Numbered from the stretch's first letter, positions 25,240-53,470 are shown. The stretch: 64,000 nucleotides of DNA from Escherichia coli (GCF_001677475.2 NZ_CP015229.1); one strand, 5' to 3'. The notes: a model not told the origin generated them from the letters alone. Translations and numbers: made by a program.

Positions 25240-25273
25240 CAACCGCCTTCGGGCGGTTTTTAATGGCAAAAAT

Positions 25274-47872: not shown

Positions 47873-50236
<2,364 letters not shown>

Positions 50237-50417
50237 GGCCTGCTCCTCACCTGATTAATTTTTTCTTTCTGTTTTGCTTTCGCTAAGCAACTTTTAGCTC
50301 ACTCATTATTTACCATTTGATAACAAATGTTTGGTCTTTCGTGCCATGTAAAAAAACCGCCCCGAATGAACTGCACCCCAAAAGTTGGACACTCAACGAA
50401 GTAAGGTGCAGTTTTTT

Positions 50418-50939
50418 ATGAGTAAATATTCTCTCAGCTTTAAGCTTGAGGTTGTGCAGCACTATCTTTCCGGCATGGAAGGGCAGAAAGCGACTGCAAA
50501 GCGTTTTGGTATCGATCACAGTGCCGTTCGTAAGTGGACTGCTGCCTGGAAGCTTCATGGCGAAGCCGGACTTACCACCCGGCATTTCGCCTATTCTCCC
50601 GTCTTTAAAGAGTCCGTTATCCTGCATATGCGTGAGCACCGGTTGTCTGTTCGCGAAGTCTGTGCAAAATTCACTATTCCGGCTTTCTCCACGGTCCTTC
50701 TGTGGGAACGCCTGTATGATGAAGGGGGATTAGAAGCCCTCACTGACAGCCGACGCGGGAGAAAAACGATGCCAGAACGCCCTGAAAATAACCCGGCACC
50801 TTCTTTACAGGCTCCTCTTAACCATGATGAACGAGAGGAACTTGAACAACTGCGTGTTGAAGTGGCTTATCTAAAAAAGTTGCAGGCCTTGCTCAGGGAA
50901 AAAAGCACGTCAAAACGCGGGATAAAACGCAGATCGTGA
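50418..50939 (+). CDS. IS3-family transposase OrfA (HTH)
   Basis: 173-aa ORF MSKYSLSFKLEVVQHY...; contains A_AAA_AAG slippery heptamer at 50873-50879. Confidence 0.8.
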   Translation: MSKYSLSFKLEVVQHYLSGMEGQKATAKRFGIDHSAVRKWTAAWKLHGEAGLTTRHFAYSPVFKESVILHMREHRLSVREVCAKFTIPAFSTVLLWERLYDEGGLEALTDSRRGRKTMPERPENNPAPSLQAPLNHDEREELEQLRVEVAYLKKLQALLREKSTSKRGIKRRS

Positions 50940-51775
50940 ATGAGTTAAGGCCGGACTTCCCTCTTGCGCGCTTGTTAAAAGCGGCAGGGCTGGCGAGAAG
51001 TACGTTCTACTGGCAACTGGCGAGCGGTAAAAAACCAGACAAATATGCCGATGATAAGCGGCAGATTTTAACGCTGTTCCATAAACATAAAGGACGGTAT
51101 GGATACAGGCGAATCACGCTGGCTATCCGCCGGGAAGGAAGCTTACTGAACCATAAAAAGGTTCAGAGGTTAATGAAGGCGTTAGATTTAACCTGCTGTA
51201 TCAGAAGGAAGAAATACAACTCTTACAGAGGCCGGTATGGGAAAGTGGCGGGTAATGTGCTGAACCGGCAGTTCAGTGCGGATAAGCCCAACCAGAAGTG
51301 GGTAACAGATGTCACGGAATTTAAAATCAGCGGAGAAAAACTGTATCTGTCCCCCGTTCTGGATCTGTATAACGGAGAAATAGTTGCGTATCAGATGGCG
51401 TCCCGTCCTCTTCTGTCGATGGTGGATGACATGCTGTTGAAGGCTGTATCTGTACTGGGTAAAGACGAATACCCGCTGCTCCACTCAGATCAGGGCTGGC
51501 AATATCAGATGGCGCATTATCAGAACCGGCTTAAGGAGGCTGGTCTGAAACAGAGCATGTCAAGGAAGGGGAACTGTCATGACAATGCGGTGATGGAAAG
51601 CTTCTTCGGCACGCTGAAATCTGAGTGTTTTTACCTGATGGAACACAAGAATATCAGCGAGTTGCGCATGGCTATCGATAATTACATCCACTATTACAAC
51701 CATGAAAGAATAAAACAGAAACTGAAAGGCCTGAGTCCGGTAGAGTACCGAACCCAGGCCCTGATAGCCGCTTAA
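50936..51775 (+). CDS. IS3-family transposase OrfB (DDE catalytic domain; likely expressed as OrfAB by -1 frameshift)
   Basis: 279-aa ORF in -1 frame relative to orfA with integrase-core-like DDE region (HSDQGWQY..., ...NAVMESFFGTLKSE). Confidence 0.8.
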   Translation: MNELRPDFPLARLLKAAGLARSTFYWQLASGKKPDKYADDKRQILTLFHKHKGRYGYRRITLAIRREGSLLNHKKVQRLMKALDLTCCIRRKKYNSYRGRYGKVAGNVLNRQFSADKPNQKWVTDVTEFKISGEKLYLSPVLDLYNGEIVAYQMASRPLLSMVDDMLLKAVSVLGKDEYPLLHSDQGWQYQMAHYQNRLKEAGLKQSMSRKGNCHDNAVMESFFGTLKSECFYLMEHKNISELRMAIDNYIHYYNHERIKQKLKGLSPVEYRTQALIAA

Positions 51776-51823
51776 TATAAACCGTCCAACATTATGGGGT
51801 CAGTTCACGAAGGGCGGCTCTGT

Positions 51824-53470
51824 TTATTTCACACAGCGGGTGCATTGTGTGAGTTGTATCTGCTGGAAGAAGTCATTTCCTTTATCATCCACAAGGATAA
51901 ACGCCGGGAAATCTTCCACTTCAATTTTCCAGATGGCTTCCATTCCCAGTTCCGGATATTCAACACATTCCAGGCTCTTAATACTTCCCTGCGCCAATAC
52001 AGCTGCCGGACCACCGATACTGCCGAGGTAGAAGCCGCCGTGTTTTTTACAAGCATCCGTCACCTGCTGGCTGCGGTTGCCTTTCGCCAGCATGATCATA
52101 CTTCCGCCCTGCGCTTGCAGTTGATCGACATAAGAATCCATCCGTCCGGCGGTCGTTGGGCCAAGAGAACCGGAGGCATAACCTTCCGGCGTTTTGGCCG
52201 GACCCGCGTAGTAAATCGGATGATCTTTAATGTACTGCGGCAGCCCTTCACCGTTATCCATCCGCTCTTTCAGTTTGGCGTGAGCAATATCACGACCAAC
52301 GATAATCGTGCCATTCAGCGATAAGCGTGTAGAAACGGGATACTGCGACAACTGTGCGAGGATCTCTTTCATCGGACGGTTAAGGTCAACGCGCACCGCT
52401 TCGCCTTCTCCCGCTTTGCGCAGCTCTTCCGGGATATATTTGCCTGGATTATGTTCCAGTTTTTCGATCCAGACACCCTGACGGTTGATCTTCGCTTTGA
52501 TATTACGGTCAGCAGAACAGGAGACACCCATACCGACCGGGCAGGATGCGCCGTGACGTGGCAGGCGAATCACGCGGATGTCGTGAGCGAAGTATTTACC
52601 ACCAAACTGCGCACCCAGACCAAGATTTTGCGCTTCGATCAGCAATTCTTTTTCCAGTTCCACATCGCGGAACGCCTGACCGTGCTCATTCCCTTCCGTT
52701 GGTAGTTCATCATAGTATTTCGCGGAAGCCAGTTTCACCGTTTTAAGGTTCGTTTCTGCAGAAGTTCCACCAATAACGAACGCAATATGATACGGAGGAC
52801 AGGCCGCCGTACCCAGAGTGCGCATCTTCTCAACCAGGTAATTTTTCAGTTTCCCCGGCGTTAGTAACGCTTTGGTTTCCTGATAGAGATACGTCTTGTT
52901 TGCCGAACCACCACCTTTGGCGATACAGAGGAATTTGTACTCGTCGCCATCAACGGCATAAAGATCGATCTGCGCTGGCAGATTGGTGCCGGTATTCACC
53001 TCTTTATACATATCCAGTGGCGCGTTTTGCGAGTAGCGCAGATTATCTTCGATATAAGTGTTATAGACACCGCGCGCCAGCGCCGCTTCATCACCACCAC
53101 CGGTCCATACACGCTGCCCTTTTTTACCAACAATAATCGCGGTGCCGGTATCCTGACAGGTCGGCAGAATGCCTTTCGCCGCGATGTCGGAGTTACGCAG
53201 GAATTGCAGCGCCACATATTTATCATTTTCGCTGGCTTCTGGGTCACGCAGAATGTCGGCCACCTGTTGTTGGTGAGCCGGACGCAGCATAAACGACGCA
53301 TCATGAAACGCCTGACGCGCCAACAAAGTTAACGCTTCGGGTGCGACTTTCAAAATCTCCTGCCCTTCAAATTCAGATACGCTAACGTGTTCGCTGGTTA
53401 GCAGGTAATACTCAGTATCATCTTTTTTGAGTGGAAAAGGAGCCTGATAATGAAAGGGTTTGTTTGACAT
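51824..53470 (-). CDS. fumA: Fumarate hydratase class I, aerobic
   Basis: 548-aa [34 protein letters not shown]. Confidence 0.92.

What the first reader, a model, noticed from the sequence alone, without database searches (positions are those of the whole stretch)
50363..51810. IS3-family element inserted in the loop of the fumA terminator hairpin, between fumA and fumC
A 1,440-bp element with imperfect terminal inverted repeats (TGAACTG...CAGTTCA), an orfA/orfB pair in -1 frame relation and an A_AAA_AAG slippery site is flanked by a 4-bp duplication CGAA. Removing it restores CCGCCC-CGAA-GGGCGG followed by a T-run on the minus strand, a canonical intrinsic terminator just after fumA. The insertion therefore splits the fumA terminator and sits in the region that normally carries the fumC promoter, so it could alter fumC expression by polarity or outward transcription. 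Loop-targeted insertion is reminiscent of hairpin-targeting IS150-group elements such as IS1397.
Basis: partly seen in the sequence, partly recalled or inferred. Interest (0 to 1): 0.6.

Follow-up and report, generated by a model that had tools for sequence, protein, structure and literature searches.

The report
ISEcB1 inserted in fumA terminator loop
A known 1.4-kb jumping gene (ISEcB1) sits exactly in the loop of the hairpin that ends fumA transcription, and other genomes show that it and its relatives repeatedly land in such terminator hairpins.

Summary
Window 50367-51807 (1,441 bp, one base longer than stated) is an intact copy of ISEcB1, a catalogued IS3-family element. It has 24-bp TG...CA inverted repeats, orfA/orfB in 0/-1 frames, an in-frame A_AAA_AAG and a 4-bp duplication, CGAA. 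The unoccupied site AAAAAAACCGCCCCGAAGGGCGG is present in 5,392 of 5,426 complete E. coli genomes. On the minus strand it is a stem plus U7, starting 6 nt after the fumA stop.

The IS1397 comparison is also right. IS1397 shares 24 of 25 left-end bases and sits with a 4-bp duplication in a REP loop. All five distinct ISEcB1 insertion events I examined lie in hairpin loops at three loci: fumA/fumC twice (1 bp apart, same orientation), yfbM/nuoN, and sseA in both orientations. In each, the left end faces AAAAAACCGCC. More distant elements with the same 22-nt left end, from several phyla, show an A-run plus GC arm outside that end in 42% of cases, against 4-6% in controls.

The only perfect Mar/Sox/Rob-box match in the window lies between the IS and fumC, so fumC's own promoter region is not interrupted. 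Effects on expression are untested. The element is known.

The parts
50350..50356 (-). A7 on the + strand, which is the U-tract of the fumA terminator on the - strand. It is now separated from the upstream stem arm.
50357..50362 (.). Left stem arm, CCGCCC, of the split fumA terminator hairpin.
50363..50366 (.). Left copy of the 4-bp target-site duplication, CGAA. This is the whole tetraloop of the hairpin.
50367..51807 (+). ISEcB1, complete copy of 1,441 bp. It differs from the commonest sequence of the other copies by one synonymous base (IS position 318, window 50684).
50367..50390 (+). Left inverted repeat (IRL). Its first 22 nt are identical in related elements from many phyla.
50368..50417 (+). 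Hairpin in the IS left end. IRL nt 2-11 pair with the region holding the putative orfA ribosome-binding sequence (AAGGUG), followed by U6 just before the ATG. It probably blocks expression from transcripts entering from outside (inferred).
   Evidence: z = -3.0
50418..50939 (+). orfA, 173 aa, with helix-turn-helix domains.
50873..50879 (+). Slippery heptamer A_AAA_AAG in the orfA frame, the likely -1 frameshift site.
   Evidence: RefSeq 'programmed frameshift' annotation
50936..51775 (+). orfB in the -1 frame, with the rve (DDE integrase-type) catalytic domain. The fused OrfAB spans 50418-51775 and is 452 aa.
51784..51807 (-). Right inverted repeat (IRR).
51808..51811 (.). Right copy of the duplication, CGAA.
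51812..51817 (.). Right stem arm, GGGCGG, of the split hairpin. It starts 6 nt after the fumA stop codon.
50329..50347 (-). Perfect Mar/Sox/Rob-box consensus upstream of fumC. It lies 19 bp on the fumC side of the IS and is intact.
   Evidence: only match in the window; 0.06 expected by chance
48833..50236 (-). fumC (class II fumarase), downstream of the split terminator.
51824..53470 (-). fumA by synteny (manA-fumA-fumC-tus). PGAP labels it fumB. Its terminator is the insertion target.

Best explanation
The feature is an intact, probably still mobile copy of ISEcB1, an IS3-family element related to IS150 and IS1397. It transposed into the 4-nt loop of the intrinsic terminator just downstream of fumA.

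Shown here:
- The identity of the element, its two reading frames, its inverted repeats and its 4-bp duplication.
- The empty site.
- All five distinct ISEcB1 insertion events examined sit in the loop of a perfect GC-rich hairpin that follows an A-run, with IRL next to the A-run arm.
- The staggered 4-bp cut lies within about 1.5 nt of the hairpin's centre in each case.

Inferred:
- OrfAB, made by a -1 frameshift at A_AAA_AAG, moves the element by the copy-out/paste-in route through a circular intermediate that is typical of the IS3 family.
- The transposase complex chooses targets as IS1397 does, by recognising a hairpin-forming palindrome and cutting across its loop. The preferred palindromes here are terminator hairpins (A-tract, CCGCC...GGCGG) rather than REP units.

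Consequences at this locus (inferred):
- The fumA terminator can no longer form.
- fumA transcripts enter the IS antisense to the transposase gene.
- fumA-to-fumC read-through transcripts are interrupted by 1.44 kb.
- fumC keeps its own SoxS/MarA/Rob-type promoter region.
For: Identity:
- 99.9% over 1,440 nt to RefSeq 'IS3-like element ISEcB1' copies.
- NF033516 at 410 bits, cutoff 160.
- rve and HTH Pfam domains.
- The window copy differs from the commonest sequence by one synonymous base.

Empty sites were verified at all three loci.

Target loops:
- fum, duplication CGAA, stem 6, loop 4.
- fum, duplication CCGA, stem 6, loop 4.
- yfbM/nuoN, duplication CATG, stem 7, loop 5.
- sseA, duplication AATT, stem 16, loop 6.
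- sseA in the opposite orientation, duplication TTTT, stem 14, loop 7.
- Stems of at least 6 bp occur at 3.7% of random positions.

The window's insertion is independent of the other fum insertions:
- It is offset by 1 bp.
- Its flanks differ from those strains at about 1.4% of positions, while the IS differs at 0.2% or less.
- The same flanks are 99.5% identical to an IS-free strain.

Distribution in 5,426 complete genomes: 84 carry the element at yfbM/nuoN, 31 at sseA and 2 at fumA/fumC. Ninety genomes have a full-length copy.

Recent activity: BL21 derivatives have a second copy, at sseA, carrying the B-lineage base 969A. REL606 has only the yfbM/nuoN copy.

IS1397 comparison: IRL is identical at 24 of 25 positions, and the duplication TTTA lies in a REP loop.

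Related elements with the same 22-nt IRL:
- 50 of 118 distinct left flanks have an A-run plus GC arm.
- Controls give 4.0% at random positions and 5.9% at non-ORF positions (p about 1e-30).
- Only 2 of 118 have a T-run instead.
- Where both ends were available, hairpins reconstitute, for example in L077, L029, L042, L169 and L173.
Against: - ISEcB1 was seen at only three hairpin loci, and all share AAAAAACCGCC. Recognition of structure and recognition of sequence therefore cannot be separated for this element.
- A similar hairpin in the same window (25243-25260) is unoccupied.
- About 29 of the 146 chromosomal BLAST places were not inspected (my subtraction). These include partial copies.
- One BL21(RP) copy has no duplication and no hairpin, probably because of a rearrangement.
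- Among distant relatives, only 9 of the 15 events with both ends have a perfect stem of 5 bp or more around the duplication. One (L111) sits in a stem arm rather than the loop.
- The terminator scan reported the fum hairpin only on the + strand. It missed the sseA and nuoN hairpins, probably because their A and T tracts pair with each other.
- The RNA structure downstream of the slippery site is not significant (z = -1.2).
- Frameshifting, transposition, terminator function and fumC expression were not measured.
Confidence: 0.85

Rival explanations
1. ISEcB1 inserts without real target preference. Copies are seen in terminator loops only because insertions between genes and beyond the stop codon are harmless and survive selection.
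For: Intergenic and inter-operon locations are over-represented for insertion sequences in general, and terminator-like sequences are common upstream of them (preprint 10.1101/2025.07.22.666184). Only three loci are known for ISEcB1.
Against: Selection cannot explain precision at the base level. Five distinct events all lie within a 4-7-nt loop. Two independent events in the same tetraloop are 1 bp apart and in the same orientation. The non-ORF control frequency for the flank motif is 5.9% against 42% observed.
Confidence: 0.05
2. The target is read as duplex DNA sequence (roughly AAAAAACCGCC plus a fixed spacing) and not as a hairpin or cruciform. The palindrome is incidental.
For: All ISEcB1 sites share AAAAAACCGCC on the IRL side. 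The insertion point is 9-12 nt from the start of CCGCC. Orientation is fixed at the asymmetric fum site, and both orientations occur only at the symmetric sseA hairpin.
Against: Relatives with the same IRL, including several copies within one genome (a Moraxellaceae MAG and a Hydrogenophaga MAG), sit beside arms of different sequence such as GCCGAC, CCGCC, GCCCTC and CCCGGC. IS1397 uses a REP palindrome with no A-run. The cut tracks the centre of the hairpin across loops of 4 to 7 nt.
Confidence: 0.3
3. The 1.44-kb segment is ancestral intergenic sequence, or a dead relic, rather than a recent insertion of an active element.
For: One paper lists ISEcB1 among 'incomplete' elements of REL606 (PMC7881107).
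Against: The site is empty in 5,392 of 5,426 genomes. Both reading frames are intact and OrfA is identical to other copies. The copy differs from the commonest sequence by one synonymous base. The BL21 lineage gained a second copy that REL606 lacks.
Confidence: 0.01

Closest known systems
ISEcB1 as annotated in E. coli B (REL606, BL21) between yfbM and nuoN
   Same: The DNA is 99.9% identical, with the same length, inverted repeats, reading frames and frameshift annotation. That copy also lies in a terminator-type hairpin loop, with duplication CATG.
   Different: The locus differs (fumA/fumC). The window's exact insertion (duplication CGAA) was not seen in any of the 5,426 complete genomes or in the other fumA/fumC-site contigs examined (L144, L145, L149). 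All other fumA/fumC copies examined have duplication CCGA.
IS1397 and ISKpn1, the REP/PU-loop-targeting IS3-family elements (Clement 1999; Wilde 2001, 2003; cited through PMC1525189)
   Same: For IS1397: IRL is identical at 24 of 25 positions, the size is about 1.43 kb, and it has orfA/orfB with a frameshift. Its 4-bp duplication is made of loop nucleotides of a GC-rich palindrome.
   Different: For IS1397: OrfB is only 52.5% identical and OrfA 37%, and DNA identity is 66% over a quarter of the element. The ISEcB1 targets are single-copy A-tract/CCGCC terminator hairpins, not REP units. ISKpn1 was not examined here.
IS150
   Same: Similar size, two reading frames and an A_AAA_AAG frameshift motif (the motif from my own background knowledge). 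The DNA is 67% identical over the last 23% of the element, including the right end.
   Different: IS150 is not known to need hairpin targets (background knowledge from its many in-gene insertions in evolution experiments, not tested here).
Bacterial class C group II introns, which insert after intrinsic terminators (background knowledge: Robart, Seo and Zimmerly 2007)
   Same: They use terminator stem-loops as a harmless landing site.
   Different: They are retroelements that recognise single-stranded DNA hairpins and insert downstream of the stem. They are not DDE transposons that cut across the loop.
REP-targeting elements of other families: ISPsy8 (IS3 family); IS621, ISPpu9 and ISPa11 (IS110 family)
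   Same: They home to abundant extragenic palindromes (PMC1525189).
   Different: Their targets are repeated REP elements. The IS110-family members use a different recombinase and different chemistry.

Membership tests
IS3 family | Transposase with a DDE (rve) catalytic domain that matches the family model | tested here: met
   NF033516 scores 410 bits against a cutoff of 160. PF00665 rve is found on orfB.
IS3 family | orfA and orfB in 0/-1 frames, joined by a programmed -1 frameshift at an A6G-type motif | tested here: met
   A_AAA_AAG at 50873-50879 is in the orfA frame. The fused product is 452 aa, the length RefSeq annotates. Frameshifting itself was not assayed.
IS3 family | Imperfect terminal inverted repeats ending 5'-TG...CA-3' and a 3-5-bp target duplication | tested here: met
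   24-nt inverted repeats and a CGAA duplication.
IS3 family | Copy-out/paste-in transposition through a circular intermediate | not testable with these tools
   This needs detection of circle junctions by PCR or in sequencing reads.
ISEcB1 (named element) | Near-identity to the reference element over its full length | tested here: met
   99.9% over 1,440 nt, with 1-3 differences from 11 other copies. The ISfinder record itself could not be consulted.
IS150 group | Sequence relationship to IS150 and IS1397 and a length of about 1.4 kb | tested here: met
   The only named relatives found in E. coli are IS150 and IS1397. OrfB is 52.5% identical to IS1397 OrfB. The formal ISfinder subgroup was not checked.
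IS1397/ISKpn1-type loop-targeting elements | Insertion inside the loop of a palindromic hairpin, with the duplication made of loop bases | tested here: met
   True for 5 of 5 distinct ISEcB1 events and for the IS1397 copy L143.
IS1397/ISKpn1-type loop-targeting elements | The target is a REP/palindromic unit of a BIME | tested here: not met
   The targets are 16-19-nt hairpins flanked by A and T tracts, directly after the stop codons of fumA, nuoN and sseA. By inspection they do not resemble the GCCTGATAAGACGCG...GCGTCGCATCAGGC unit that holds IS1397.
IS1397/ISKpn1-type loop-targeting elements | Fixed orientation relative to the target palindrome | tested here: inconclusive
   Both fum events have the same orientation. 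Both orientations occur only at the symmetric sseA hairpin. Too few asymmetric sites are known.
Intrinsic (Rho-independent) terminator, as the target | GC-rich stem-loop followed directly by a U-tract, just downstream of a gene | tested here: met
   CCGCCC-UUCG-GGGCGG-U7 starts 6 nt after the fumA stop codon (z = -4.9). The nuoN and sseA hairpins fold similarly. Termination activity was not measured.

The most novel reading that the evidence does not exclude
ISEcB1, IS1397 and a large, old set of related elements share an almost invariant 22-24-nt left end, although their transposases are only about 50-60% identical. They occur in Proteobacteria, Bacteroidota, a Streptococcus genome and an Anaerolineaceae (Chloroflexota) MAG.

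The novel reading is that these form one group of transposons that recognise DNA hairpins. Most members would home to the loops of intrinsic terminators, with the left end next to the terminator's T-tract arm. REP targeting by IS1397 and ISKpn1 would then be a special case of a general, so far undescribed, terminator safe-harbour strategy.
Probability: 0.45. Interest if true: 0.65.

Novelty: new member of a known kind. Interest (0 to 1): 0.4.

Why it matters
At this locus, the insertion removes the terminator between fumA and fumC and puts 1.44 kb between the fumA promoter and fumC. It therefore provides a natural allele for testing how much fumC expression depends on read-through from fumA and how much on its own stress-responsive promoter.

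More generally, an insertion sequence that reliably lands in terminator loops rarely kills genes. It does rewire the 3' ends of transcripts, so it would be a quiet modifier of operon boundaries.

If hairpin recognition is a shared property of the elements with this conserved left end, it offers two things. One is a simple system for studying how a DDE transposase reads DNA structure. The other is a possible tool for inserting DNA at terminators.

Tried and rejected
- Rfam scan of 50100-52000 at E <= 1 found nothing.
- The structure downstream of the slippery site is not significant (z = -1.2), so I make no claim about a frameshift stimulator.
- The promoter scan found no outward promoter at the left end. 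It found one weak inward antisense match in IRR, fewer than expected by chance.
- The terminator scan was unreliable for hairpins whose A and T tracts pair with each other. I used RNA folds instead.
- A metagenome scan with an ISEcB1-specific 40-mer gave only two contigs, both at yfbM/nuoN.
- Exact-protein look-ups for OrfA and OrfB returned only the same three loci.
- The primary IS1397 and ISKpn1 papers (PMC94167, PMC95333, PMC169884) are not held. Their content is cited second-hand or from my own knowledge.
- Literature searches for ISEcB1 target preference, for terminator-loop targeting by IS3-family elements and for the IRL sequence found nothing specific.
- I considered that the A-run plus arm might belong to the element itself. 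The empty sites rule this out.
- I considered that the two fum insertions are one event. The 1-bp offset at both junctions and the 1.4% flank divergence argue against it.

Full report
**1. What is in the sequence**

Window 50367-51807 is a 1,441-bp element.
- The ends are 24-nt imperfect inverted repeats: TGAACTGCACCCCAAAAGTTGGAC at 50367-50390, and its partner at 51784-51807.
- The element is flanked by direct repeats CGAA at 50363-50366 and 51808-51811.
- orfA (50418-50939, 173 aa) and orfB (50936-51775) overlap in 0/-1 frames.
- A_AAA_AAG at 50873-50879 is in the orfA frame. A -1 shift there gives a 452-aa fusion protein. RefSeq annotates the same length as a programmed frameshift in identical copies.
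- The fusion matches the NCBIfam IS3 transposase model at 410 bits, against a cutoff of 160.
- Precomputed Pfam hits give helix-turn-helix domains on orfA and HTH_21 plus rve on orfB.

**2. Identity**

The element is 99.9% identical to sequences that RefSeq names 'IS3-like element ISEcB1 family transposase'. Full-length copies occur in 90 of 5,426 complete E. coli genomes.
- The window copy differs from the commonest sequence of the other copies by one synonymous base, Ala89 of OrfA. It is therefore intact.
- ISEcB1 is distinct from its named E. coli relatives. IS1397 is 66% identical over 25% of the length, and IS150 is 67% identical over 23%.
- In the papers I could search, ISEcB1 appears only in lists.

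**3. It is an insertion, and the target is the fumA terminator**

Removing the element and one CGAA gives GTAAAAAAACCGCCCCGAAGGGCGGCTCTGTTTATTT.
- IS-free strain 9 has exactly this sequence.
- A 400-nt reconstruction of the empty site matches contiguously in 5,392 of 5,426 genomes.
- On the minus strand the site reads CCGCCC-UUCG-GGGCGG followed by U7. The stem starts 6 nt after the fumA stop codon (z = -4.9).
- The duplicated CGAA is the whole tetraloop.
- With the IS present, no terminator-like hairpin is found there.

**4. The fumC promoter**

The only perfect match in the 64-kb window to the Mar/Sox/Rob-box consensus AYNGCACNNWNNRYYAAAY is at 50329-50347 on the minus strand (0.06 expected by chance). 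It lies 19 bp on the fumC side of the IS left end, between the IS and fumC.

The insertion is therefore upstream of fumC's own stress-responsive promoter region and does not interrupt it. The IS should interrupt the read-through route. This is inference and was not measured.

**5. Other ISEcB1 copies show the same behaviour**

| Locus | Duplication | Stem / loop | Sources |
|---|---|---|---|
| fumA/fumC, window | CGAA | 6 bp / 4 nt | |
| fumA/fumC, other strains | CCGA | 6 bp / 4 nt | L001, L004, L144, L145, L149; |
| yfbM/nuoN | CATG | 7 bp / 5 nt |; empty site |
| sseA | AATT | 16 bp / 6 nt | L146, L138; empty site |
| sseA allele, opposite orientation | TTTT | 14 bp / 7 nt | L134, L148; |

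- Stems of at least 6 bp occur at 3.7% of random positions.
- The yfbM/nuoN hairpin is AAAAAAAACCGCCGA-GCATG-TCGGCGG. It is the site occupied in E. coli B.
- The sseA hairpin is the symmetric AAAAAACCGCC-GAATTT-GGCGGTTTTTT. The opposite-orientation copy lies in an allele of it, AAAAAACCGCC-TGATTTT-GGCGGTTTTTT.
- In every case IRL abuts the AAAAAACCGCC arm, and the 4-bp cut lies within about 1.5 nt of the centre of the hairpin.
- The two fum events are independent. Both junctions are offset by 1 bp. The window's flanks differ from the CCGA carriers at about 1.4% of positions, while the IS differs at 0.2% or less. The same flanks are 99.5% identical to an IS-free strain.
- In the complete-genome set, 84 genomes carry the element at yfbM/nuoN, 31 at sseA and 2 at fumA/fumC.
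- BL21 derivatives have a second copy, at sseA, with the B-lineage base 969A. REL606 has only one copy. This points to recent activity.

**6. Relation to IS1397**

An IS1397 copy between torD and cbpM reads ggcctgataagacgcgTTTA|TGAACTGCACCCCAAATGTTGGACA...GGGGTTCAGTTCA|TTTAgcgtcgcatcaggc.
- The left end is identical to ISEcB1 at 24 of 25 positions.
- The 4-bp duplication lies in the loop of a REP palindrome.
- The proteins are only 52.5% (OrfB) and 37% (OrfA) identical.

ISEcB1 nevertheless fails the feature that defines the IS1397 and ISKpn1 targets, because its hairpins are terminators and not REP units.

**7. A wider pattern**

The exact 22-mer of the ISEcB1 left end occurs in at least 120 stretches of species-representative genomes. 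These include Neisseria, Haemophilus, Burkholderia, Hydrogenophaga, Polynucleobacter, Moraxellaceae, Bacteroides, Streptococcus and Anaerolineaceae. It also occurs in 24 viral-collection contigs.
- The full-length examples encode OrfB proteins only 49-60% identical to ISEcB1 OrfB.
- Of 118 distinct left flanks, 50 have an A-run followed by a GC-rich arm 5-18 nt from the junction. The frequency is 4.0% at random positions and 5.9% at non-ORF positions (p about 1e-30). Only 2 have a T-run instead.
- Where both ends were available, several rebuild clean hairpins around the duplication. Examples are L077 AAAAGGCCCGC-att-GCGGGCCTTTT, L169 AAAGGGCCGC-gcaagaat-GCGGCCCTTT, and L029, L042 and L173.
- Others are imperfect, and one (L111) lies in a stem arm.
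- Copies within a single genome sit beside arms of different sequence. That favours recognition of structure over recognition of a fixed sequence for the group as a whole.
- I found no paper describing this. One preprint reports terminator-like sequences upstream of insertion sequences in general.

**8. Mechanism proposed**

Shown here: the anatomy, the loop-centred 4-bp duplications, the recurrence and the orientation.

Inferred:
- OrfAB mobilises the element by the IS3-type circle pathway.
- The transposase complex selects a hairpin-forming palindrome and cuts symmetrically across its loop.
- IRL ends up next to the arm that carries the terminator's T-tract, so transcription from the terminated gene enters antisense to the transposase gene.
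- The IS left end itself folds so that IRL nt 2-11 pair with the putative ribosome-binding region, followed by U6 (z = -3.0). This would limit expression from outside transcripts in the sense direction.

**9. Limits**

- ISEcB1 is known at only three loci, and all share CCGCC.
- A similar hairpin at 25243-25260 in the window is empty.
- About 29 chromosomal BLAST places were not inspected (my subtraction).
- No expression, frameshift or transposition data exist here.
- ISfinder and the primary IS1397 papers could not be consulted.

**10. Verdict**

The element itself is already catalogued. What is probably new is that it belongs with IS1397 as a loop-targeting element but uses terminators as targets, and that this may be general for elements sharing this left end.

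Noticed in passing
L012-L131, L152-L175: The 22-nt left end TGAACTGCACCCCAAAAGTTGG is identical in elements from distant phyla, although their OrfB proteins are only 49-60% identical to ISEcB1 OrfB. That is unusually strong conservation for a transposon end.
   Followed up: partly
L135, L003, L139 versus L134/L148: In genomes that also carry the opposite-orientation sseA copy, the 7 nt left of the yfbM/nuoN copy read TGATTTT (TGATTT in L139) instead of GAGCATG. That matches the other copy's flank. It looks like gene conversion spilling into the flank and ending in the shared AAAAAACCGCC.
   Followed up: partly
L005/L007 (BL21 lineage, sseA); L002; L006: All three B-lineage copies are preceded by ATG. 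The BL21 sseA copy has an imperfect duplication, AATG on the left and AATT on the right, while non-B strains have AATT on both sides. Either one base of donor flank moved with the element or there was a very short conversion.
   Followed up: partly
window 50368-50417: The IS left end folds so that IRL pairs with the putative orfA ribosome-binding region, followed by U6 right before the ATG (z = -3.0). By eye, comparable complementarity follows IRL in IS1397 and several distant relatives (sequences).
   Followed up: partly
window 25243-25260 (- strand): This is an unoccupied hairpin of the same type, AAAACCGCC-CGAA-GGCGG with a T-run. It is a potential ISEcB1 target in the same window.
   Followed up: no
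L006 (BL21(RP), near ybcW): This ISEcB1 copy has no target duplication and no hairpin. It lies next to IS421 and a truncated IS3, and the strain has five BLAST places for the element. It probably results from a rearrangement.
   Followed up: no
L046-L065 (Bacteroides sp. OM05-12): More than 20 copies of a related element sit at contig ends beside two recurring flank types: AGTGAAGGCACTTTTTT, and CTCAATTCTCAACT repeats. This suggests species-specific repeated targets, similar to REP targeting.
   Followed up: no
L012-L016, L039, L106, L107 (Neisseria, Haemophilus): The left flanks read AAAAGGTCGTCTGAAA or GGCCGTCTGAAA. These look like the DNA-uptake-sequence hairpins that serve as terminators in Neisseria (identified from my own background knowledge).
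   Followed up: no
window 51824-53470; L001, L004, L011 annotations: RefSeq (PGAP) labels the class I fumarase next to fumC and manA as 'fumB'. By synteny it is fumA.
   Followed up: no
PMC7881107 versus L002: The long-term evolution experiment paper lists ISEcB1 as an incomplete element in REL606. The REL606 copy is nevertheless full length (1,441 bp) and differs from the commonest sequence only by OrfB E134K.
   Followed up: partly
L150 (strain Z1323HEC0009): An isolated 40-bp match to the ISEcB1 right end lies next to an IS110-family transposase gene.
   Followed up: no
The terminator scan misses hairpins whose flanking A and T tracts can pair with each other, because the T-run is absorbed into the stem. 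Bidirectional terminators are therefore under-reported.
   Followed up: yes
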